Shown: positions 28,671 through 52,532 of the stretch, one piece after another
Layout of the letters: each line of letters starts with the position of its first letter
How positions within the stretch are numbered: the first letter of the stretch is position 1
Notes under the pieces: model-generated
Seen by the model: only the letters and a program-made list of their open reading frames with translations
Databases searched by the model: none
What the model was told of the DNA's origin: nothing
Program-made: the position numbers and the translations under genes
Sequence record: MN445185.1
From: Escherichia phage vB_EcoM_EC001
DNA: 64,000 bases
Direction: 5' to 3' (one strand)

Positions 28671-29131
28671 TGAAGATTATTACCATAGTGGGGCCAGACA
28701 CGGCTAACGGCAGGAAATATTCCACAGATATCCTCGCGCTTTATAACGAGCTGGACAAAAGCGAAATAGAAAGCTATCGAAAAGAGACGGGTATTAATGT
28801 CCGTTTTACGCCGGCTAAATCGTTAGCCGAGCGCTTCCGGGGTCGTTTACTGGCGGTCGTGGACGACGGTGTCTTGTATGGCTTTGCGCAATACCGCACG
28901 ATGACTGAAGAGGGTGTGACGATGATGTCGGTATCCTCACTGGTCGTTAGCAGCAGCGCACGTGGTAAAGGTTACGGCACCGCGTTGATGGATGCGGTAA
29001 AGAAATCCGCAACGGAAAAAGGGTGTACAGTTGTTCACCTGTCCGTGAACGCCGGTAACGCTGCCGCGAAGTCGCTCTACGACAAAGCTGGCTTTAAGGT
29101 AGGTGCTTACCAGATGTATTGGAGGGTGTGA
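28670..29131 (+). CDS. GNAT-family N-acetyltransferase (tandem paralogue 1)
   Basis: motif A SSARGKGYGTALMDAV, motif B NAGNAAAKSLYDKAGF; N-terminus MKIITIVGPDTANGRKY parallels the next gene. Confidence 0.7.
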   Translation: MKIITIVGPDTANGRKYSTDILALYNELDKSEIESYRKETGINVRFTPAKSLAERFRGRLLAVVDDGVLYGFAQYRTMTEEGVTMMSVSSLVVSSSARGKGYGTALMDAVKKSATEKGCTVVHLSVNAGNAAAKSLYDKAGFKVGAYQMYWRV

Positions 29132-29595
29132 TGAAAATTGTTTTTGTCACCAAGCCCAACTCTCCGTATGGAAAGAAATACTACGCGGACTTGTTAGGAC
29201 TACACAACAAGTTATACGACGATCAGAAAATAAAACTTGCCGACTTAAACGGTCGTGAAGGGTTTAATCAAATCTCAAAACTGGAGGAGGTTTGGGGTGA
29301 AGGTACGCTGTGCGCTTGCGCCGTTGATGACCGTGGTGTGGCTGTTGGTTTCATCACCTTTGGCTACACCAAAAAGGGACAACGTTTCCTCTGGGTATAT
29401 AACTTTTTTGTAGATGAATCGGTTCGTTCACAAGGCGTTGGCCATGAACTGATCGAAGCCGTAGAGAACTATGGCAAATCAAAAGGCTGCGCATGGATGC
29501 AGCTTAACGTGCTCGGTAATAACGACCGTGCTATTGCGTTTTATGAACGTTTCGGATTCCGAACTGAATACCAGGATATGGTAAAGGAGCTTTAA
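29131..29595 (+). CDS. GNAT-family N-acetyltransferase (tandem paralogue 2)
   Basis: GGAGGG ribosome-binding site; motif A VRSQGVGHELIEAV, motif B NDRAIAFYERFGF; N-terminus MKIVFVTKPNSPYGKKY. Confidence 0.7.
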   Translation: MKIVFVTKPNSPYGKKYYADLLGLHNKLYDDQKIKLADLNGREGFNQISKLEEVWGEGTLCACAVDDRGVAVGFITFGYTKKGQRFLWVYNFFVDESVRSQGVGHELIEAVENYGKSKGCAWMQLNVLGNNDRAIAFYERFGFRTEYQDMVKEL

Positions 29596-29596
29596 C

Positions 29597-30205
29597 ATGG
29601 TGGCTGTCCGCAGCGTGCCACATCAGACTGGCTCGCGATATACTTTTTGTGTAAAGCGTTTCGGGGCAAGAAATCGCCCTGGTTGGAAGGTGGTACGTGC
29701 GATGGGACAGTTCTGGCAATTACCACCTGGCACGTTAAAATATTTTTCAGTAGACAGAATAACCCGGTTCTTAAACGCGGCTGACCCAAGTCAACGCTCC
29801 AGTTTTATGGCAGGGATCGTTTGTCGTCCCGATGGGAAAACACGCGATGCAACCACTCGTGGAATCTACTGGACAGGACAGAACGCGTTTCAGGTTGGCT
29901 TACCTTGCCTGAAGTGTGAAGTGACACCGTTTAATGGTCCCTACGCCGATGCGCACTTCACCGGTATCTTTGTGTCGTTCCCAGACGACCCGTCTTTAAA
30001 CTACTTTTTATCAGTGGACAAAGACGTCAGTATTGATACCTTTTACAAATACTTGTTGTTTTACAGCCGGTATATCCGCGTGACTCCTGTGCATGAAGAT
30101 TGGTATTATAAAAATCCCTTGAACTATGGGAGGGACAGGAGACTAGAAGGATGTTCTATCGAGAGCTTCAACTCTGTACCGCAGCGCTCCATGGCGCTAA
30201 TGTGA
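29597..30205 (+). CDS. hypothetical protein
   Basis: AAGGAG ribosome-binding site; 202 aa. Confidence 0.55.
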   Translation: MVAVRSVPHQTGSRYTFCVKRFGARNRPGWKVVRAMGQFWQLPPGTLKYFSVDRITRFLNAADPSQRSSFMAGIVCRPDGKTRDATTRGIYWTGQNAFQVGLPCLKCEVTPFNGPYADAHFTGIFVSFPDDPSLNYFLSVDKDVSIDTFYKYLLFYSRYIRVTPVHEDWYYKNPLNYGRDRRLEGCSIESFNSVPQRSMALM

Positions 30206-30522
30206 GCAAGAACGGGGACCTGGAAGACGTCGCGCAAGCCTTACGGGCTGTGTCGGAGGTTGACCAGGTCGACATCGACGCTAAGTATTTAGGCGGCGGT
30301 GTAAAGCGTATTCAGTTGACCGTGCGAGCCAAACATGGCAGCTGCTCGTTACATTTTCGAGTCAGTGCGGATTATTTCCTGGTACTGCGCTCCACATTCA
30401 GTCACGATGGTCGGACTCACCGGGTTCGGTGGATGCACGACATTACTAAATTTGGCTACCCGCTTGCAGAACAACGTAAAGTCGTACATGACTTTATGGC
30501 TGCAGTCGTTGCGGGGTTTTAA
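30151..30522 (+). CDS. hypothetical protein
   Basis: 123-aa ORF overlapping upstream gene by about 55 nt. Confidence 0.4.
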   Translation: MFYRELQLCTAALHGANVSKNGDLEDVAQALRAVSEVDQVDIDAKYLGGGVKRIQLTVRAKHGSCSLHFRVSADYFLVLRSTFSHDGRTHRVRWMHDITKFGYPLAEQRKVVHDFMAAVVAGF

Positions 30523-30534
30523 GGGGAGACTGTG

Positions 30535-31131
30535 ATGTCTGAGATGATTCTCGATTCGCTGTTTTTGATTACGGTTGCAAACATCAATAAAAACGGCAAT
30601 CTTCCAGAATACGTAGACATAAGTCGTCATGGCTTTAAGCGTCGTTATCAAATCGGTAAGGTACTAGAGATTGCCTGCTTAGTAACGAACATGCGTAGAC
30701 CGGTGGAAGGCTGTAGCGTTAAACATGCACAGATGATACTCGGGCGTGCTATTTCAGAAGTACGTCGTAAGCGTCGTCGTGCACCGTATCGCTTTTATCC
30801 TAACTCCACCAAACAGGTGGTCGGTGAGGGGGAAGGTGTGGTTGATTTGCGTGAGGCCAGTTGTAATGTAGGCGGTATTGCACGTGACTGGTTAATGAGC
30901 ATTATCAGTAAGCATCCACGTACACCTACGCCGCAAGAAGGACAGGCGGTACTCGCACTTATGCGTAAGACCCATTTGGTGATTACTGATACACCAAACC
31001 AGGCAGCACGAATGCAGCACTATTTGGCATGTCGTGGCTTCACCACACTTGCAGTACCTTCTGAATACACAGCTGATATTAAACTTCCGCCAGTCCCAGA
31101 TTGGTCTGAACCGACAGTTGATCATCAGTGA
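30535..31131 (+). CDS. hypothetical protein
   Basis: AAGGGGA ribosome-binding site; ATG at 30535. Confidence 0.55.
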   Translation: MSEMILDSLFLITVANINKNGNLPEYVDISRHGFKRRYQIGKVLEIACLVTNMRRPVEGCSVKHAQMILGRAISEVRRKRRRAPYRFYPNSTKQVVGEGEGVVDLREASCNVGGIARDWLMSIISKHPRTPTPQEGQAVLALMRKTHLVITDTPNQAARMQHYLACRGFTTLAVPSEYTADIKLPPVPDWSEPTVDHQ

Positions 31132-31136
31132 GTTAT

Positions 31137-31175
31137 ACCCACTCCTTCGGGAGTGGGTCGACTCTATTTTTTTTG
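31137..31175 (+). terminator. rho-independent terminator (UUCG loop)
   Basis: ACCCACTCC-TTCG-GGAGTGGGT then T-run. Confidence 0.85.
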
Positions 31176-31200
31176 GATAGATGTTATCTTAGGGAGACGT
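31176..31200 (+). promoter_or_regulatory. conserved promoter-like element, variant B
   Basis: GGATAGATGTTATCTTAGGGAGACG immediately after terminator. Confidence 0.5.
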
Positions 31201-31291
31201 GCAAAAATTACGTTTCATCCTTAGCATATGCTAGAAGCCGTTGTGAGTCGGTTAAAACTCACCAACTTAAACTTAAAAGCGAGTAAACAAA

Positions 31292-32056
31292 ATGTCAAAA
31301 CTCAATAAAGCAGCAACCAAAGAATGGCTTTCCGTACCTACCGCAGATGGTCAGTATCGCTACGTATTCACGTATGACGAAAATGACCTGACGGCAAAAG
31401 GTATTCCGCACATGTTAAGTCACAAACTGATTAACAGCGTGACCGGTGCCACCTTAGTAGGTTCCGGCGGAAGGACAATCTTTTGTGCCCCCAGTTGGGA
31501 TCAAACTGAACTGACCAAGAAAATGCTCGGTGAACTCCGGGCGGTTTCCGCACGTCTGTTCTTTAAGCTGATTGCCAGAAAACCGGCGCTATGGGATGCA
31601 TGGTCTCAACACAATCTCGAGGCATTGCGTGGGGAGTGTCTGAATTACGTATTGGTCGAAGAAGTGATTGATAACTTCTTCGCTAACGTGATGAAAACCG
31701 AACGACTGCGTAAGCCGAACACCGACGGTTATTCGTTTGTCTCCGTTAAGAGCAGCGAACTGATTCGGGGTGAGTTTGCAGGGCATGTCCTTTCGGTAAC
31801 TCGGAACCTGAGTTTCTTTGGCCAGCCTTTCAGTGAGCCAGTTGTTCAGGTAACTTATGATTTCCGTTTACCGTTTACTGTTCGGAATGAGTTTGACCCA
31901 GGTCAAGTTTCGTTGAAGTTTTTATATCCTCTCCAGTCATGGCCGTTATTGAAGAGGTTCTTAGCTGAGCCCCGTGTAGCTGCGGTGCTGCAAGCGTGGA
32001 TTGATTCATGGCCAGAAGGCATTGAGGAAAAATCGAAAACGCGAGTTGACTTCTAA
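31292..32056 (+). CDS. hypothetical protein
   Basis: 254-aa ORF. Confidence 0.55.
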   Translation: MSKLNKAATKEWLSVPTADGQYRYVFTYDENDLTAKGIPHMLSHKLINSVTGATLVGSGGRTIFCAPSWDQTELTKKMLGELRAVSARLFFKLIARKPALWDAWSQHNLEALRGECLNYVLVEEVIDNFFANVMKTERLRKPNTDGYSFVSVKSSELIRGEFAGHVLSVTRNLSFFGQPFSEPVVQVTYDFRLPFTVRNEFDPGQVSLKFLYPLQSWPLLKRFLAEPRVAAVLQAWIDSWPEGIEEKSKTRVDF

Positions 32057-32063
32057 GTAAGCT

Positions 32064-32098
32064 AGGCACTCTTCGGAGTGCCTATTATTTTTTTTCTT
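32064..32098 (+). terminator. rho-independent terminator (UUCG loop)
   Basis: AGGCACTC-TTCG-GAGTGCCT then TATTATTTTTTTT. Confidence 0.85.
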
Positions 32099-32159
32099 TA
32101 CGTATGCTCGCTATATTGTGACACCACTACAATTAATTAAACTTTTGGGGAAGAATAAA

Positions 32160-32783
32160 ATGTTAAACTCAGTGGCGCTGGATGGTCCAGATTTTTCTGG
32201 CAAATCAACACTCGCGAAAATGATTCAAGCGATGTTGCGCTCCGCTGGCGTTAATGTCATCATCGTCAATCACCCGACGAATACCACTGAAGCCGGTATT
32301 AGTGCACGTTCTCTGGTTATCCAGCACGCTTCTAACGAACGCATTGCTAAAGCGATGTGTCTGGATTTCCAATACACGATGGATTTCGTTGTACCAGAGC
32401 ACGATGTCGTTATTTTTGACCGTTTTTGTCAATCGACTATTGTCTACCAGGGCGTCGATGGTAAAGGGGAAGTTTTCCGTTCGCGGGTATTAGACCACAT
32501 TAACGCACCAAAGCTTTACGTGGCAACCGATGTATCTTACGAAACCGCCACAGAACGCTTTAAGAAGCGCGTAGAGGCACAAGGTAAGAACTGGGATGAT
32601 GAGGTACTGACAGCGAAGTATCTGCGCTCACAGACCGATTGGGACGCCTTACGCGACCATTACCGTTTTGCTTTCCACATCACCACAGATGGCGGCGATA
32701 AGTTCCCGCTGATGCGTGTTACGGCTGACGACGATATAGCGTTACAAGCCGCGCGTATCGTTGAACGTATTCTGGCAGGTTAG
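32160..32783 (+). CDS. tmk: thymidylate (dTMP) kinase-like nucleotide kinase
   Basis: P-loop LDGPDFSGKST; IFDRFCQSTIVYQG matches Tmk motif IGDRHDLSTQAYQG; start taken at ATG 32160 rather than upstream GTG. Confidence 0.65.
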   Translation: MLNSVALDGPDFSGKSTLAKMIQAMLRSAGVNVIIVNHPTNTTEAGISARSLVIQHASNERIAKAMCLDFQYTMDFVVPEHDVVIFDRFCQSTIVYQGVDGKGEVFRSRVLDHINAPKLYVATDVSYETATERFKKRVEAQGKNWDDEVLTAKYLRSQTDWDALRDHYRFAFHITTDGGDKFPLMRVTADDDIALQAARIVERILAG

Positions 32784-32870: not shown

Positions 32871-32899
32871 ATTTCAGATATATATTACTTAGGTGAGAG
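32871..32899 (+). promoter_or_regulatory. conserved promoter-like element, variant A
   Basis: ATTTCAGATATATATTACTTAGGTGAGAG; conserved downstream AATCGACTATTAATCTAAAAGGAGTATT. Confidence 0.55.
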
Positions 32900-32947
32900 T
32901 TACTACTAAACTCTCTAATCGACTATTAATCTAAAAGGAGTATTCTA

Positions 32948-33313
32948 ATGCGTTTTAAACATCAAACCGTTGTGTTGGCAAAGAAAGCGTTTTTGGTTCG
33001 TCTTTCTTACATTATTACTCGTGTCACTGCGAAGGACGTTACGCAGAAAGACATTGCGTTATTAGTAGGCTGCTCACCGTCACAAATATCTGCGATTAAA
33101 AATGAACGTGAGAAGGCCGTGACTATCGAAACATTGATGCGGGTTGCTGATACACTGCGCCTGAATTACGAAATCGTCTACCGTTCCATCAACGGCAAAT
33201 GCCGCCATAGCTTTAAAATTGAATCATGCATCGATTACATGAACAACTGTCCTATCCGGGTACGAGAAACAGGACTTAAAGTCATGGCACGTAAACCTTC
33301 TGCAGTAATGTAG
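32948..33313 (+). CDS. helix-turn-helix (XRE/Cro-like) transcriptional regulator
   Basis: QKDIALLVGCSPSQISAIKNE ... TIETLMRVADTL matches helix-turn-helix pattern; first gene after promoter-like element. Confidence 0.5.
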   Translation: MRFKHQTVVLAKKAFLVRLSYIITRVTAKDVTQKDIALLVGCSPSQISAIKNEREKAVTIETLMRVADTLRLNYEIVYRSINGKCRHSFKIESCIDYMNNCPIRVRETGLKVMARKPSAVM

Positions 33314-33324
33314 GGAGCAAACGT

Positions 33325-33711
33325 ATGAATTGGTTTGTAAATGGTATCACCCGTCGCGTGATGACGGAAGAGGATGATCGATGTAAACATCTTAAAGTGG
33401 GCTCTATAGCCCCGCGCTATACGGCAGAGTGCGACCCATGGGGCCGCGAAACGTATTACATGTGCGAAGACTGCTGGGAAAAACTGCAGGCTGCAATTGC
33501 GGCGGAAGAAGTGGTCTGCGACGACTGCAAAGGTACCTTCCCGAAACGGGATACCGTTGAGTGGAAATGGTACGACTTTGACCCCAGTCAAGGGGATAAA
33601 GAACTCTGTATCTGTAATAACTGTGTGTCGTTACCGGTACATTTAAACCGTGTAGAGAATGACCGTCGGGCATTTGAACACGACTTTCCAGAAGCAACTT
33701 TCTGGGATTAA
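33325..33711 (+). CDS. Cys-rich zinc-finger protein
   Basis: multiple CxxC pairs (CEDCW, CDDCK, CICNNC). Confidence 0.55.
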   Translation: MNWFVNGITRRVMTEEDDRCKHLKVGSIAPRYTAECDPWGRETYYMCEDCWEKLQAAIAAEEVVCDDCKGTFPKRDTVEWKWYDFDPSQGDKELCICNNCVSLPVHLNRVENDRRAFEHDFPEATFWD

Positions 33712-34243
33712 CTAGTGTAAACCTTAAGGAGTATATCATGGCGAAGGCCCCTAAAACTGTAGCAAAAGATTCAACGGCAAGCACCGCGACTAAATCTGCA
33801 AAAACGTCTACTACAGAATTTCCACGTTCACCTACCATTCCTAAACCGGATGTAATTGTACCAATCAGTGAACGTCTGAAAACGATTCACATCGAACGTG
33901 AATTTCCGATTGACCTTGGTCAGGAAATCGTTGCGGTTAATCTTGGTAGTGATGTCCGCTTTACTATCTACAAGGGATTAACTAGTGTAAACCTTAAGGA
34001 GTATATCATGGCGAAGGCCCCTAAAACTGTAGCAAAAGATTCAACGGCAAGCACCGCGACTAAATCTGCAAAAACGTCTACTACAGAATTTCCACGTTCA
34101 CCTACCATTCCTAAACCGGATGTAATTGTACCAATCAGTGAACGTCTGAAAACGATTCACATCGAACGTGAATTTCCGATTGACCTTGGTCAGGAAATCG
34201 TTGCGGTTAATCTTGGTAGTGATGTCCGCTTTACTATCTACAA
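33704..34243 (+). repeat. perfect tandem direct duplication, 2 x 270 bp (33704-33973 and 33974-34243)
   Basis: both copies read base-by-base as identical; unit includes ribosome-binding site AAGGAG, ATG and first 79 codons. Confidence 0.9.
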
Positions 34244-34664
34244 AGGCGCGCATCTGAACAACATGGTGCTAACCCGCGGTGATGAAGTTATCGGTCTGTC
34301 TCGTTACGACACGCAAATCGAAAACATCTATCCGGTGTTTGCAGTAGCGATGTTGCGTTTGTTCATGCAGGATAAAGCCGACCTTTGTGGTCAGCTTGCG
34401 GGTATGGCGGATCGTGTTGGTCATATTCTGCCGACGCTGGTGAAACTGTACCCAGTTACGATTGACGTGGCGTTTACTACTGTAGACAACAACCACGGTT
34501 ATATCGTGCTGACCAAAGACGGTAAAGTTATCGCTGGCAATCTGACTGATAACGAAGTGCAGAAACATATGGACAAATTTGCGTTCATGGTGAATCGCTT
34601 AGCGCACGTCAGTGTCAAACATTCCGAAACTTGGACGGCGCTTGCCTCCAAACCGGAACTGTAA
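33738..34664 (+). CDS. hypothetical protein carrying in-frame duplicated N-terminal region (alternative start at second ATG, 34008, gives the unduplicated protein)
   Basis: 308-aa ORF; residues 1-79 repeated at 91-169, joined by translated former leader LTSVNLKEYI. Confidence 0.6.
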   Translation: MAKAPKTVAKDSTASTATKSAKTSTTEFPRSPTIPKPDVIVPISERLKTIHIEREFPIDLGQEIVAVNLGSDVRFTIYKGLTSVNLKEYIMAKAPKTVAKDSTASTATKSAKTSTTEFPRSPTIPKPDVIVPISERLKTIHIEREFPIDLGQEIVAVNLGSDVRFTIYKGAHLNNMVLTRGDEVIGLSRYDTQIENIYPVFAVAMLRLFMQDKADLCGQLAGMADRVGHILPTLVKLYPVTIDVAFTTVDNNHGYIVLTKDGKVIAGNLTDNEVQKHMDKFAFMVNRLAHVSVKHSETWTALASKPEL

Positions 34665-34667
34665 TCA

Positions 34668-34705
34668 TTAAGGGGTCTTCGGACCCCTTAATTTTTTGTC
34701 TTTTT
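34668..34705 (+). terminator. rho-independent terminator (UUCG loop)
   Basis: TTAAGGGGTC-TTCG-GACCCCTTAA then T-run. Confidence 0.85.
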
Positions 34706-34753
34706 ACGCATTATCCTCATGTTGTGACAGCAATACCTTTTGAGGGCATTACA

Positions 34754-35752
34754 ATGAAAACTGTGGCTAAATTGTTTCGCACCAGCATCCGCACTGCCGA
34801 GTTCCGAAATAACGTCGGTACCGATACTGTACGAGCACGCCGCCTAAAAGAGTTTCTAAAGGACGAGACTTATTCTGTTTACGTGGTGAAGAATAAAGAA
34901 ACCTGGGAGGGTTATTTAGTGGCCACCTATCGACACGGTGACCCTACACTAACCTGTCACTATTTTGAGGAGTTTGTACCTGGGGCGTTCGATAAAGTTG
35001 GTTTGGCCCTTGTGCTCGACCATACCGGATTCGAATATATGTCGTGCCCAGCACCTACTGACGATGTTGAACAAAAACTGGTCGAAAAAGGGTTTGTTCT
35101 TTCAGATATCGTTTGGGCATGTCATTCCAAACTGTTTGACAAAGTAATAACCGCACCGGAAATCAAGATTATTTCTGGTGATGCATACGCAGAACTTACC
35201 AAGGATGATAAAGACGTTATCCTGAATTTGATTAGCGGTGCAATTTGCGAAGAGCTAGAATACGATATGCGTGGCTACTATACGCACATTGGTCCGTTAG
35301 CAGAAACAGTAATAGCAAGAATTCAGCACGCTAATGTGGAGACTGCAATTTGGCGAGACGGTCATGATATCGTCGGTATTGCCCAGATGCGCTTGGTTAC
35401 ACCAGGCGTCGTTGAACTTTCTGGTTTAACCGTTGCACCCACGCACCGTAAACGTGGCATTGGTCGCCGGCTAATGGGCGCGCTATTCGATTTCGCACAA
35501 CGTCATTCCGACCAAGTCTATATTGAAACAGCTGCTGATAATAATCCAGCAAATCACCTGTATGGCAACATCTTACGTTGCAAGCAGGTACTGCGTACAC
35601 TAACGTTGAAACGCGATCCTGAACTTATTAGCTGGAAACGGGTGAATGGAAACCGCGCCGATCGTGTGCTGAAAGAAGAACCTAGCTTTCCGGTGGAGAC
35701 TACAACCAGGCTGACTATTAGTGATATGTTTCAATCTGGCATGAGAGGATGA
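34754..35752 (+). CDS. two-domain protein: N-terminal unknown domain fused to C-terminal GNAT acetyltransferase
   Basis: ATG 34754 with GAGGG upstream; C-terminal motif A VAPTHRKRGIGRRLMGALFDFA and motif B NNPANHLYGNI. Confidence 0.6.
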   Translation: MKTVAKLFRTSIRTAEFRNNVGTDTVRARRLKEFLKDETYSVYVVKNKETWEGYLVATYRHGDPTLTCHYFEEFVPGAFDKVGLALVLDHTGFEYMSCPAPTDDVEQKLVEKGFVLSDIVWACHSKLFDKVITAPEIKIISGDAYAELTKDDKDVILNLISGAICEELEYDMRGYYTHIGPLAETVIARIQHANVETAIWRDGHDIVGIAQMRLVTPGVVELSGLTVAPTHRKRGIGRRLMGALFDFAQRHSDQVYIETAADNNPANHLYGNILRCKQVLRTLTLKRDPELISWKRVNGNRADRVLKEEPSFPVETTTRLTISDMFQSGMRG

Positions 35753-35758
35753 TAACGG

Positions 35759-36577
35759 GTGATAAGACCAATTTTAAAATGGATGGGTGGTAAGAGTCGT
35801 GTACTGCCCGAGCTGCTACAGGTGTTTCCGGATGCTGAGTATTTCGTTGAACCTTTTGTGGGCGCAGGGTCAGTGTTTTTAAACACTAAATACCCGAACT
35901 ATATTCTCGGCGACACGAACCCGGACTTAATCGAGTTACTGACCATGGCGCGCGATCGTCCGGAAGCGCTGATTCTGGAAGCAAAGGCGCTCTTTGCAAA
36001 TGGGACGGACCGCGGTCTGTACATGAAACGGCGTGAGGAATTTAACAGCGAGACAACCACGGGGAAACCTAATCTCCAGCGCGCCGCGATGTTCCTGTAT
36101 CTTACACGTCATGGTTACAATGGTTTGTGCAGATACAATCAGTCGGGTGGGTTTAACGTGCCCTATGGTCAACACCCGAACGGTGTCTATTTCCCTGAAG
36201 AGGAAATTCTGGCGTGGGCAAAACGTTGTTCGGAAACCAACGTCGAGCTGCTCTGCGCGGACTTCCGCGATATCCTAAATAAATGCCCATCTAACGCTGT
36301 GATATACGCTGACCCGCCCTATATCCCTCTTTCGGATACGGCTAAACACGCGCAGTATCACAGCAAAGAATTTTCACAAGCTGACCACCGCGAGTTAGCG
36401 AAACTTTTAAAACAACAAGCTGCCGATGGCAATAAGGTCGTTCTGTCAAACGCAGATACGTTACTCACACGCGATATTTATTACGGCTTTACTTGGCGCG
36501 AAGTTCAGGTAGGTCGATATATGTCTGCGGATGCGAATAAGCGTAAAGCGGTGACGGAGCTAATCGGCACCTTATAA
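35759..36577 (+). CDS. dam: DNA adenine methyltransferase (Dam family, expected GATC specificity)
   Basis: ILKWMGGK vs E. coli Dam FLKWAGGK; FVEPFVGAGSVFLN identical block; catalytic DPPY; LYLTRHGYNGLCRYN vs LFLYLNRYGYNGLCRYN. Confidence 0.85.
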   Translation: MIRPILKWMGGKSRVLPELLQVFPDAEYFVEPFVGAGSVFLNTKYPNYILGDTNPDLIELLTMARDRPEALILEAKALFANGTDRGLYMKRREEFNSETTTGKPNLQRAAMFLYLTRHGYNGLCRYNQSGGFNVPYGQHPNGVYFPEEEILAWAKRCSETNVELLCADFRDILNKCPSNAVIYADPPYIPLSDTAKHAQYHSKEFSQADHRELAKLLKQQAADGNKVVLSNADTLLTRDIYYGFTWREVQVGRYMSADANKRKAVTELIGTL

Positions 36578-36586
36578 GGTACCAAC

Positions 36587-37390
36587 ATGCAACTATTTAA
36601 TCTATACGGTATGGACAAAAATGACCTGACCGTAGAGTTTAGTGGTCGATTGACCACCTTGGGGCAACTCCGTGAACGGATTCAAGATTTGCGACCCGTC
36701 GCAGACCAAGAAGACGATCATTGGTTAGTGTTGAGCAATAGCGGTCGTGCGCAAATGTATTTTCGTGGATGTCGTTCAGGTATTGTTTACTACATCTACG
36801 AGTTGCACGTGCTTTCCGAGCCCCTGTTCCACGAGTGGAAGCGTTTAACGCGACTCCTGGAAGTGCAGATGCTCGATATTACCTGCTTTCCGCATGACAC
36901 TGAGCACGCAGCACTATACCAGCGCCTGGGGTTCGAAGCTGTAACGAAGCGTGTGGAGATTACTGTCAGTCCGAAATACGGCTTTACGTCAGACCCATCA
37001 GTTGTCCCGTTGGAGACATTGTCATTAGAACAAACCCAGGATGTTTGCTATCTGATGCGACCTACGCTAAAAGACGCAGGAACGCGTGAGATGTTGGGTG
37101 AATTAGCAAATGGTTTTGTCTCTGCGTTCGTGGGGTTGCACGGCCAGAAACCGTTTTCATTAATGCTTTATAAGGAATTCCCGAAGTGCATCATTACTGA
37201 GCAATTCTGCTGCCAAACTTTTGACCCGGTTGCTTACTCGGTAGAGTTTCTAAAACACTACCACGCTATTTTGCATTTGGCGGGACAGAAAGGTAAGAAG
37301 GTCAACATGGGTGTTGCGATAGAGCACGAGTTTCCTTCTATCGAAGGGTTAGAGTATCGTGTAATCACGCACCACTACACCCTTGCGTAA
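36587..37390 (+). CDS. hypothetical protein (weak GNAT-like motif)
   Basis: 267-aa ORF; HAALYQRLGFEAV resembles GNAT motif B only. Confidence 0.5.
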   Translation: MQLFNLYGMDKNDLTVEFSGRLTTLGQLRERIQDLRPVADQEDDHWLVLSNSGRAQMYFRGCRSGIVYYIYELHVLSEPLFHEWKRLTRLLEVQMLDITCFPHDTEHAALYQRLGFEAVTKRVEITVSPKYGFTSDPSVVPLETLSLEQTQDVCYLMRPTLKDAGTREMLGELANGFVSAFVGLHGQKPFSLMLYKEFPKCIITEQFCCQTFDPVAYSVEFLKHYHAILHLAGQKGKKVNMGVAIEHEFPSIEGLEYRVITHHYTLA

Positions 37391-51346: not shown

Positions 51347-52150
51347 ATGTTAAAGCCACGCAAACAGAAAAGATTACAGTTTGTCAAAATAGTACATCCA
51401 CAGTCCCGTCGTGTTACAGGTGGACGTCTCTACGTGGGTAAACACCGTAGTCGTCTTATCACCTGGTCGGCAATGGCCAACGTAGCCACCCAACTCCAGG
51501 CAATGGTTGAAGACCGTTGCCAGTTAAAAGGGGATTTCTTTCAAGAGAAGAAACCCTATCGTGATATCTTCCGTACACTAAAAGCGTGCTGGGTACTCAG
51601 CTGGGTGCCTGGCCGCGAACAACTTTATTTTCTGCGTAAGTTCCCACGCCCTATGCCGAAGGAAAACATTAGCGTTTTCTTAGACAAACTAAAACGCTTT
51701 AATGACATCGGCATAAACGCTAATAAAGAGCAGGTTTCTGCTACAGTAGCAGCCCGAAAACACTTACGCGATTATGTGGCCGATCGAGATGTTGAGTTCG
51801 CTTATATGACGCCGACTGTACCGCTGCTAAACGGTGATGCATCGAAAGCGAAGATGGAAGAGATCGCGTTGAAGTTTCCTAACATCAGACACATCGCACC
51901 AGACGCGGTACTACAGCTGAACACTGAAGGCTGCACGCGTTTACCGACAGTCTCTGACACGGTGTTAGTATCAACACCTGATGTTCCTGATGGAAAGTCG
52001 TTCCTTGAAATGATAAAGAAACGTACAGAGGGTGGATATCAACCGATCTTTCTGGATTCCCTTTCACAACATCCTGAAGTAGAACAAGAATTTAACATGA
52101 ACACTAACAGCCCTTACGACTCCCTATACAAGGACGATAATGATGCTTAA
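51347..52150 (+). CDS. hypothetical protein
   Basis: AAGGAG ribosome-binding site; 267 aa. Confidence 0.55.
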   Translation: MLKPRKQKRLQFVKIVHPQSRRVTGGRLYVGKHRSRLITWSAMANVATQLQAMVEDRCQLKGDFFQEKKPYRDIFRTLKACWVLSWVPGREQLYFLRKFPRPMPKENISVFLDKLKRFNDIGINANKEQVSATVAARKHLRDYVADRDVEFAYMTPTVPLLNGDASKAKMEEIALKFPNIRHIAPDAVLQLNTEGCTRLPTVSDTVLVSTPDVPDGKSFLEMIKKRTEGGYQPIFLDSLSQHPEVEQEFNMNTNSPYDSLYKDDNDA

Positions 52151-52532
52151 GCCTAAGAAACGTAAAGATGGTGCGGTCATTTTCTCTCCGAGAATCGCTG
52201 TAGCAGTTGGTAAGAAATTACTGGTCCAGGACGGTAAGTGGGTCAGTGACGGATTCAGTCAGTACACCTCGCTATGCATCTCTTCCGAGATGAATCAGAT
52301 GCACGGGAAGAAAGTACGTGACCGACGATCTCAGATGCCAAAAGTTATCCGTGTTGTGGCCGGCTGGTATAAGCGATACATGAAAAAGAACTTCCCACAC
52401 GCAGCGCCGCCGTTTGAAGAAGGGTCTTTTGTTCGTACAGAACCCACCGAAGCGGGTGGCGAATTACCGGTGCGTACCGGCACGGCGTATTCGACGCTGA
52501 CTTCCTTGTGTCGTCAGTCGTACGAAAAGTAG
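52140..52532 (+). CDS. hypothetical basic protein
   Basis: 130-aa ORF. Confidence 0.5.
   Translation: MMLKPKKRKDGAVIFSPRIAVAVGKKLLVQDGKWVSDGFSQYTSLCISSEMNQMHGKKVRDRRSQMPKVIRVVAGWYKRYMKKNFPHAAPPFEEGSFVRTEPTEAGGELPVRTGTAYSTLTSLCRQSYEK

What the first reader, a model, noticed from the sequence alone, without database searches (positions are those of the whole stretch)
33704..34243. Perfect 270-bp tandem duplication spanning the ribosome-binding site, start codon and first 79 codons of a gene
Positions 33704-33973 and 33974-34243 are identical base for base. Because 270 is a multiple of 3 and the former 5' leader has no in-frame stop, the first ATG (33738) yields a protein with residues 1-79 repeated, joined by the translated leader LTSVNLKEYI, while the second ATG (34008) with its own ribosome-binding site still yields the unduplicated product. 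Zero divergence implies a very recent event or an assembly artefact. If real, it gives two translational starts and an extended isoform, a snapshot of domain-duplication evolution.
Basis: seen in the sequence. Interest (0 to 1): 0.6.

Follow-up and report, generated by a model that had tools for sequence, protein, structure and literature searches.

The report
Assembly artefact: untrimmed contig-end overlap
The perfect 270-base tandem repeat is really in the deposited sequence, but an independent assembly made directly from reads of what appears to be the same phage contains only one copy, so it is almost certainly an assembly leftover rather than a biological gene duplication.

Summary
In detail: window 33704-33973 and 33974-34243 are identical, giving a 308-aa ORF in place of the family's 218-aa protein. 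The window is a Seoulvirus (SPN3US-like jumbo phage), almost certainly Escherichia phage vB_EcoM_EC001. Its paper describes a de novo SeqMan assembly of 2x300 reads from a circularly permuted genome, which was then rotated to match phage JN03. That procedure leaves a perfect, roughly read-length repeat at the rejoin if the overlapping contig ends are not trimmed. A k=31 read-level contig (Logan SRR17297938_310) matches the window with one copy removed at 0 mismatches over 1375 nt. It includes all five window-private alleles and runs unbroken from left flank through one unit into the right flank. Every other relative examined (32 phage records, all the shown complete-gene Salmonella-assembly and Logan contigs, 25 protein clusters) is single-copy. 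The one apparent confirmation, phage Lh1B, is a reference-constrained consensus built on the same scaffold, and its own alleles make up exactly one unit. The junction has no microhomology. Verdict: not a real feature (confidence about 0.9). The two-start/isoform reading describes the record, not the phage. The residual doubt is a real duplication, fixed or in a minority of genomes, that the read-level contig missed.

The parts
33704..33973 (+). Copy 1 of the 270-nt unit. Under the artefact model this is the 3' end of the original linear de novo contig.
   Evidence: Identical to 33974-34243. The read-level contig L036 contains this unit once, followed directly by 34244 onward.
33974..34243 (+). 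Copy 2 of the 270-nt unit. Under the artefact model this is the 5' end of the original linear contig. One of the two copies is redundant.
   Evidence: L036 compared with the window as given shows 207 mismatches beginning exactly at 33974, and 0 mismatches once 33974-34243 is removed.
33970..33977 (.). Junction ACAA|GGGA between the copies: blunt, with 0 bp of microhomology. This is the inferred place where the two ends of the rotated contig were rejoined.
   Evidence: Flank comparison. The junction sequence is absent from IMG/VR and is not traversed by the read-level contig.
34008..34664 (+). The real gene: a 218-aa homologue of SPN3US gp103 (SPN3US_0103), function unknown.
   Evidence: Full-length match to PHROG 32024, 218/218, E 1e-146. 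No Pfam family and no PDB relative. All 25 homologue clusters are 206-252 aa. Neighbouring-gene tables of relatives show 218 aa.
33738..34664 (+). The 308-aa ORF created by the repeat. It is annotated as a CDS in the derived Lh1B record (UGO35831.1) and is a product of the artefact.
   Evidence: No protein of this length or sequence exists in the 5.8-billion-protein collection.
33325..33711 (+). Upstream gene (128 aa, SPN3US gp102 homologue, PHROG 8344). Its last 8 nt, including the stop codon, lie inside the unit.
   Evidence: The exact protein is found on 20 contigs. Every shown contig that holds the complete downstream gene has the 218-aa form.
33726..33731 (+). AAGGAG ribosome-binding site of gp103 (copy 1). 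The duplicate is at 33996-34001.
   Evidence: Read directly from the sequence.
34670..34697 (+). Intrinsic-terminator-like hairpin (AAGGGGTC-TTCG-GACCCCTT) followed by a T run, just after the gene.
   Evidence: Read directly from the sequence. Not tested further.

Best explanation
The 270-bp perfect tandem repeat is an assembly and finishing artefact, not part of the phage genome. The window is almost certainly Escherichia phage vB_EcoM_EC001 (MN445185), positions 64001-128000. This circularly permuted 240-kb genome was assembled de novo from 2x300 MiSeq reads into a linear contig, and the contig's two ends redundantly covered the same ~270 nt (less than one read length). The draft was then cut and rotated to start where phage JN03 starts. 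The old ends were butt-joined without trimming the overlap, which created a perfect head-to-tail repeat at an arbitrary internal position, here across the 5' end of the gp103 homologue. The real gene is the ordinary 218-aa one. The later Lh1B record inherited the repeat because it was built as a consensus on this same scaffold. What is shown: the repeat is in the record; a read-level contig has a single copy; all independent relatives examined have a single copy; Lh1B is not independent; the assembly history is published. What is inferred: the exact mechanism (an untrimmed end overlap at rotation, rather than some other mis-join), and that SRR17297938 is EC001's own run.
For: (1) Read-level test. 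Logan contig SRR17297938_310 (L036, 1375 nt, k=31 assembly straight from reads) equals window 32874-33973 plus 34244-34518 with 0 mismatches. It includes the window-private alleles 33187, 33196, 33202, 33205 and 33820. It reads ..CTACAA|AGGCGC.. and is unbroken at both unit boundaries. Against the window as given, mismatches start exactly at 33974. A second contig from the same run (L016) equals window 34550-36563 with 0 mismatches, so these reads appear to come from this phage. (2) Assembly history. [quoted passage not shown] A circular contig of 240,200 bp was obtained', and a circularly permuted genome. Window coordinates run within ~44 nt of JN03's, as expected after rotation. (3) The unit length of 270 nt is below the read length, identity is 100%, and the junction is blunt with 0-bp microhomology. 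(4) Every other relative examined is single-copy. This covers 32 of 33 phage records and every contig shown that contains the complete gene. Three of those (L006, L010, L014) are identical to the collapsed window over ~1 kb except for one base. All 25 protein clusters are 206-252 aa. (5) Lh1B, the only other record with the array, is not independent. It has the same 240,200 bp and 270 CDSs. It shows 0 gaps over 64 kb, whereas independent relatives show 2-13 gap openings per ~12 kb, and it carries 259 ambiguity codes. Its own alleles occupy copy-1 positions 13-111 and copy-2 positions 138-267, which is exactly one unit, and the intervening 270 nt are identical to the window unit.
Against: I could not map reads directly. 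The link between SRR17297938 and EC001's SRP351973 rests on sequence identity and accession date, not on a record. The Logan contigs of that run are short (1.4-2 kb), and L036 and L016 are separated by a 31-nt gap rather than a k-1 overlap, so coverage may be low. In a ~6x model a real, fixed junction would be missed about 5% of the time. A duplication carried by a minority of genomes (below roughly one third) could be pruned by the assembler's graph cleaning; that threshold is from my memory of Minia's settings, not a tool result. The EC001 authors are experienced in phage genome finishing, which slightly lowers the prior for an untrimmed overlap. I cannot show that the original contig ends lay at this position.
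Confidence: 0.9

Rival explanations
1. It is a genuine, fixed, very recent tandem duplication in the EC001 phage stock. It would give a 308-aa gp103 isoform from the first ATG and the normal 218-aa protein from the second.
For: The repeat is in the deposited sequence. It is in frame and creates no stop, and both copies share the private F28 allele. The read-level evidence could be a false negative at about 5% if coverage is ~6x. Tandem duplications do arise in large phage genomes (own knowledge).
Against: The read-level contig crosses left flank, one unit and right flank unbroken with 0 mismatches. With a fixed duplication the junction k-mers would make both unit ends branch points. No relative has the repeat. 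The junction has no microhomology. Perfect 270-bp repeats are unstable in recombination-proficient phages (own knowledge). The published assembly history offers a simpler cause. Lh1B gives no independent support.
Confidence: 0.04
2. The duplication is real but present in only a minority of genomes in the lysate. The overlap-layout assembler, working on a 200,000-read subsample, happened to incorporate it, while the k-mer assembler pruned it as a low-coverage connection.
For: The Logan contig excludes only a junction at normal coverage; a minor path could be removed by graph cleaning (inference). The short Logan contigs and the odd 31-nt gap at 34519-34549 could reflect some heterogeneity in the reads.
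Against: There is no positive evidence for any junction read. A consensus assembler would not normally prefer a minority structure. The coincidence of a perfect, sub-read-length repeat with a documented cut-and-rotate step is explained without it.
Confidence: 0.05
3. The duplication is ancestral to two independent isolates (EC001 from Canada and Lh1B from Kazakhstan). It would therefore be a stable lineage feature that has been partly overwritten in Lh1B by recombination with single-copy phages.
For: Lh1B's record carries a 540-bp array whose copies differ at 22 sites, and it annotates the 308-aa CDS.
Against: Lh1B equals the window's genome in length and CDS count and has 0 indels over 64 kb, against 2-13 gap openings per 12 kb for real relatives. 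It is full of ambiguity codes. Its own alleles form exactly one unit, split once in the interval 112-137, with precisely 270 nt of window-identical sequence between the halves, including EC001's private T at unit position 116. A double crossover would need both exchange points to fall in the same 27-nt interval of the unit.
Confidence: 0.01

Closest known systems
Terminal-overlap artefact of circular or circularly permuted phage assemblies (redundant contig ends kept when the contig is circularised or re-oriented)
   Same: Perfect identity. Length below one read (270 nt versus 2x300 reads). Arbitrary, blunt end points unrelated to gene boundaries. A genome documented as circularly permuted, assembled de novo and then rotated to a reference start. 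The repeat is absent from a read-level assembly and from all relatives examined.
   Different: Such overlaps usually sit at the two ends of the record. Here the repeat is internal, at record position ~97.7-98.2 kb, because the contig was rotated after assembly. I could not see the original contig to confirm where its ends were.
Genuine tandem duplications in large dsDNA phages (for example those selected in T4 or lambda deletion mutants)
   Same: Head-to-tail, in-frame, initially perfect copies that can create fused or extended ORFs.
   Different: Real ones are supported by junction reads, commonly show short homology at the end points (own knowledge), and are found in the phage DNA. Here the junction has 0-bp microhomology and the read-level contig has one copy.
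Nested in-frame isoforms from two translational starts (for example T7 gene 4A/4B, lambda C/Nu3)
   Same: The record offers two in-frame ATGs, each with an AAGGAG, that would give a long and a short product with the same C-terminus.
   Different: In the known cases both starts are in the real genome and conserved among relatives. Here the upstream start exists only in the artefactual copy, and no relative has it.
Reference-guided consensus inheriting reference structure (explains the Lh1B record)
   Same: Same length, zero indels, ambiguity codes, and reference sequence filling an alignment gap inside a perfect repeat.
   Different: The Lh1B paper states SPAdes assembly in Geneious and does not mention mapping to EC001. 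The reference-guided step is inferred from the sequence.

Membership tests
Assembly artefact: untrimmed contig-end overlap after rotation | The two copies are 100% identical and exactly adjacent | tested here: met
   270 x 2.0 copies, 100% matches, no extension on either side.
Assembly artefact: untrimmed contig-end overlap after rotation | Repeat length no greater than about one read length or overlap span | tested here: met
   270 nt, against 2x300-bp MiSeq reads.
Assembly artefact: untrimmed contig-end overlap after rotation | The genome was assembled as a linear contig of a circular or permuted molecule and then cut and re-oriented | tested here: met
   EC001 paper: de novo SeqMan NGen assembly, realigned to JN03, 'circular contig', circularly permuted. 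Coordinates are co-linear with JN03 within ~44 nt. That the window is EC001 is inferred from Lh1B's identical length and CDS count and its zero-indel relation to the window; MN445185 itself is not in the collection.
Assembly artefact: untrimmed contig-end overlap after rotation | An independent assembly of the same reads contains one copy | tested here: met
   L036 (SRR17297938_310) equals the collapsed window with 0/1375 mismatches, including 5 private alleles, and is unbroken across both unit boundaries. Caveats: possibly low coverage, and the link between this run and EC001 is inferred.
Assembly artefact: untrimmed contig-end overlap after rotation | No raw read spans the copy-copy junction | not testable with these tools
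   Raw reads (SRP351973) cannot be mapped here.
Genuine recent tandem duplication | The junction is present in the reads at genome-level depth | tested here: not met
   Indirect test: the k=31 contig does not branch at the unit ends. The chance of missing a fixed junction is about 5% at ~6x and lower at higher depth.
Genuine recent tandem duplication | Seen in an independent isolate or assembly | tested here: not met
   Only Lh1B has it, and Lh1B is a reference-constrained copy of the same scaffold. All others examined are single-copy. The junction is absent from IMG/VR.
Genuine recent tandem duplication | Short homology at the duplication end points (common but not obligatory) | tested here: not met
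   0-bp microhomology.
Dual-start nested isoform gene | Both in-frame starts are conserved in relatives | tested here: not met
   All homologues are 206-252 aa with a single start context.

The most novel reading that the evidence does not exclude
The duplication is real in at least part of the EC001 population. It would be a very recent in-frame duplication of the ribosome-binding site plus the first ~80 codons of a Seoulvirus-specific protein of unknown function, giving long and short isoforms, and it was captured by the overlap assembler but lost from the k-mer assembly.
Probability: 0.08. Interest if true: 0.3.

Novelty: not a real feature. Interest (0 to 1): 0.06.

Why it matters
As biology it does not matter: the gene is the ordinary 218-aa Seoulvirus protein of unknown function. 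As data quality it has some value. The EC001 record is probably 270 bp too long (about 239,930 bp rather than 240,200 bp) and carries a spurious 308-aa CDS. The artefact has already propagated into a second GenBank genome (Lh1B), which could be mistaken for independent confirmation. This shows how a perfect internal tandem repeat of roughly read length in a rotated phage genome should be treated, and how a reference-guided consensus can imitate conservation.

Tried and rejected
(1) Exact look-ups of the 308-aa and 218-aa products found nothing. This was uninformative, because EC001's GenBank record is not in that collection and the gene is cut by a contig end in the Logan run. (2) Two junction-sequence scans of IMG/VR gave 0 hits. 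No positive control was run, so their power is unknown. (3) The first GNAT look-up used a start one codon too early and failed; it was corrected. (4) Guessed truncated products (residues 1-190, and 34215-34577), which assumed a k-1 overlap with L016, were not on record. The contigs turned out to be separated by a 31-nt gap. (5) The thymidylate-kinase look-up was too widely shared to isolate the EC001 run. Repeating the upstream-gene look-up with a small flank, so that similar places collapsed, finally exposed the SRR17297938 contig. (6) The look-up of the next gene to the right (36587-37387) was not on record, so contig abutment could not be characterised further. (7) I first read Lh1B as independent confirmation of the duplication and rejected that after the zero-indel, ambiguity-code and allele-partition analysis. 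(8) Simple read mapping of a single-copy Lh1B onto the duplicated reference does not reproduce the allele pattern, because 286-nt reads anchored in a flank would carry Lh1B alleles across most of a copy. A gapped alignment with reference fill does reproduce it. (9) MN445185 is not in the phage collection, so the identity of the window with EC001 is inferred. (10) Function of gp103: no Pfam family, no PDB relative and no literature on 'SPN3US gp103'. No structure prediction was run, because it would not bear on the verdict. (11) Metagenome and genome-collection scans for the junction were not run, judged low-yield for their cost.

Full report
OBSERVATION. Window 33704-33973 and 33974-34243 are identical base for base. 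Tandem Repeats Finder gives period 270, 2.0 copies, 100% matches and score 1080. The repeat cannot be extended by one base on either side: the left flank ends ..TTCT, the unit ends ..ACAA, the unit begins GGGA.., and the right flank begins AGGC... The junction is therefore blunt, with 0 bp of microhomology. Apart from two isolated hits, these are the only repeated 31-mers in the 64-kb window. The coding consequences are also as stated. ORF 33738-34664 encodes 308 aa with the N-terminal ~80 residues repeated through the linker LTSVNLKEYI, and the second ATG (34008) has its own AAGGAG and gives a 218-aa product. The unit also contains the last 8 nt, including the stop codon, of the upstream gene (33325-33711).

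WHAT GENOME THIS IS. Megablast places the window in the genus Seoulvirus, the SPN3US-like jumbo phages. The gene is the homologue of SPN3US gp103 (SPN3US_0103, 218 aa). It matches PHROG 32024 end to end (218/218, function unknown), has no Pfam family and has no sequence relative in the PDB. Of 33 related phage records, 32 span the region in 270 nt less than the window, which means a single copy. Only Escherichia phage vB_EcoM_Lh1B (OK428535.1) has the full array and an annotated 308-aa CDS.

LH1B IS NOT AN INDEPENDENT CONFIRMATION.
- The window is collinear with Lh1B positions 64001-128000 at an offset of exactly 64,000. Across 64 kb there are 1774 mismatches and not one indel, and 259 of the mismatches are ambiguity codes clustered at variable sites in Lh1B.
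- Every truly independent relative shows 2-13 gap openings per ~12 kb at similar substitution density.
- The Lh1B paper gives 240,200 bp and 270 CDSs and names vB_EcoM_EC001 (MN445185) as the closest relative. The EC001 announcement gives the same 240,200 bp and 270 CDSs.
- I infer that the window is EC001 (MN445185 is not in the searchable collection) and that the Lh1B record is a consensus constrained to the EC001 scaffold.
- Inside the array, Lh1B's own alleles occupy unit positions 13-111 of copy 1 and 138-267 of copy 2. The complementary 270 nt (3' part of copy 1 plus 5' part of copy 2) are identical to the window's unit, including EC001's private T at unit position 116.
- So Lh1B's alleles add up to exactly one unit, split once, with 270 nt of reference sequence in between. 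That is what results when a single-copy sequence is aligned to a reference with a perfect duplication and the gap is filled from the reference, because the gap can be placed anywhere within the repeat.
- A real double crossover would need both exchange points to fall in the same 27-nt interval of the unit.

HOW THE SOURCE GENOME WAS BUILT. The EC001 announcement (PMC8812316) states the following. Sequencing was MiSeq 2x300. Assembly was de novo with SeqMan NGen on 200,000 reads. [quoted passage not shown] A circular contig of 240,200 bp was obtained.' The genome is linear and circularly permuted. A linear contig of a circular or permuted genome normally ends with a redundant overlap of up to about a read length (own knowledge). 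If the contig is cut at the reference's start and the pieces are swapped without trimming, the overlap becomes a perfect internal tandem repeat at an arbitrary place with blunt ends. Every property of the repeat matches this: 100% identity, 270 nt (below 300), no microhomology, and boundaries unrelated to gene structure. Window coordinates run within ~44 nt of JN03's, as expected after rotation.

READ-LEVEL TEST.
- The exact GNAT protein of the window (34754-35749) is found on only one contig in the large collection, Logan SRR17297938_272 (L016). That contig equals window 34550-36563 with 0 mismatches, whereas all other relatives differ there. The run therefore appears to be this phage. Its accession date fits EC001's SRP351973, but I could not verify the link.
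- A look-up of the upstream 128-aa protein with a small flank exposed a second contig of the same run, SRR17297938_310 (L036, 1375 nt).
- L036 equals window 32874-33973 joined directly to 34244-34518 with 0 mismatches. It includes the five alleles that separate the window from its nearest single-copy relatives (33187, 33196, 33202, 33205, 33820).
- Against the window as given, mismatches begin exactly at 33974. The contig reads ..CTATCTACAA|AGGCGCGCAT...
- Logan contigs come from a k=31 de Bruijn graph. If the junction k-mers (..ACAA|GGGA..) were present at normal depth, the unit's first and last 30-mers would be branch nodes and no contig could cross both boundaries. It does cross both.

ROBUSTNESS.
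- The contigs of that run are short. L036 and L016 are separated by 31 nt rather than overlapping by 30, and the next gene to the right is also split. The left end of L036 coincides with one of the two isolated repeated 31-mers, at 32872, so that break is structural.
- If the fragmentation reflects low coverage, a simulation indicates about 6x would give contigs of this size. At that depth a real, fixed junction would fail to assemble about 5% of the time (2-9% for 5-7x). At higher coverage the chance is negligible.
- A duplication present in only a minority of genomes could be pruned by graph cleaning. My recollection of Minia's rule puts the limit near one third; this is not a tool result.

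BREADTH OF SINGLE-COPY RELATIVES.
- The exact upstream protein occurs on 20 contigs, and the thymidylate kinase on at least 35 blocks. These are ~240-kb Seoulvirus contigs in Salmonella GCA assemblies and Logan assemblies.
- Every contig shown that contains the complete downstream gene has it at 218 aa, except Lh1B itself.
- Three of them (L006, L010, L014) are identical to the collapsed window over ~1 kb except at unit position 116.
- A search of 5.8 billion proteins finds 25 clusters, all 206-252 aa and none with a repeated N-terminus.
- The junction sequence is absent from IMG/VR (no positive control was run).

VERDICT. The best explanation (confidence about 0.9) is an untrimmed contig-end overlap retained when the de novo contig was rotated, later copied into the Lh1B record by reference-guided consensus. 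The rivals are a real fixed duplication (about 0.04), a real minority variant (about 0.05), and an ancestral duplication shared with Lh1B (about 0.01). The dual-start/isoform and 'domain-duplication snapshot' readings are not supported for the phage. Novelty: not a real feature. Interest is low, apart from the curation point that two GenBank genomes probably carry a spurious 270 bp and a spurious 308-aa CDS.

DECISIVE CHECK NOT AVAILABLE HERE. Count junction-spanning reads and relative depth in SRP351973, or run PCR or a long read across 33650-34300 (about 380 bp versus about 650 bp).

Noticed in passing
L037 (LR535906.1 Salmonella phage SPFM8, 144935-146615); the same pattern in hits H23-H33: Eleven SPFM phage records match the window in 14-18 small pieces. 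For SPFM8, the one record examined in detail, the sequence consists of 60-nt blocks, each in forward orientation but in reversed order, as if the FASTA lines had been reversed without complementing. This gives scrambled annotated proteins (P0021-P0025). It is a database artefact affecting those genome records.
   Followed up: partly
L004+L005 (OK428535.1 Lh1B 64001-128000) against window 1-64000: The Lh1B record has the same length and CDS count as EC001, zero indels over 64 kb, 259 ambiguity codes, and kb-scale blocks identical to the window (e.g. 29001-32740, 51501-52500). It looks like a reference-constrained consensus or a mixed sample rather than an independent de novo genome, although its paper reports SPAdes assembly.
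   Followed up: partly
L006-L012, L017-L022, L024, L027-L035: Near-complete (~240 kb) Seoulvirus contigs are present in many Salmonella enterica isolate assemblies at NCBI and in Logan assemblies of sequencing runs. This suggests these lytic jumbo phages are frequently co-sequenced with their hosts, either as a carrier state or as contamination.
   Followed up: no
window 34044-34106 (gp103 residues ~13-33); equivalent in copy 1 at 33774-33836: The N-terminal Ser/Thr/Ala/Lys-rich stretch of the gp103 homologue is hypervariable among relatives, while the rest of the protein is nearly invariant. The window has a private nonsynonymous change, F28 where all relatives examined have S (33820 and 34090).
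   Followed up: partly
window 34519-34549: The two read-level contigs of SRR17297938 (L036 and L016) are separated by exactly 31 nt instead of overlapping by k-1. This could be a coverage gap or an unresolved bubble with variants at both ends of this stretch, which would mean heterogeneity in the lysate. It remains unexplained.
   Followed up: partly
window 32872 and 52662: These are the only other 31-mers that occur more than once in the window when both strands are counted. The one at 32872 coincides with the left end of Logan contig L036, so it probably marks a short inverted repeat that breaks the de Bruijn graph.
   Followed up: no
window 34670-34697: A clear hairpin followed by a T run (AAGGGGTC TTCG GACCCCTT AATTTTTT) lies immediately after the gp103 homologue. 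It looks like an intrinsic terminator between this gene and the GNAT acetyltransferase gene.
   Followed up: no
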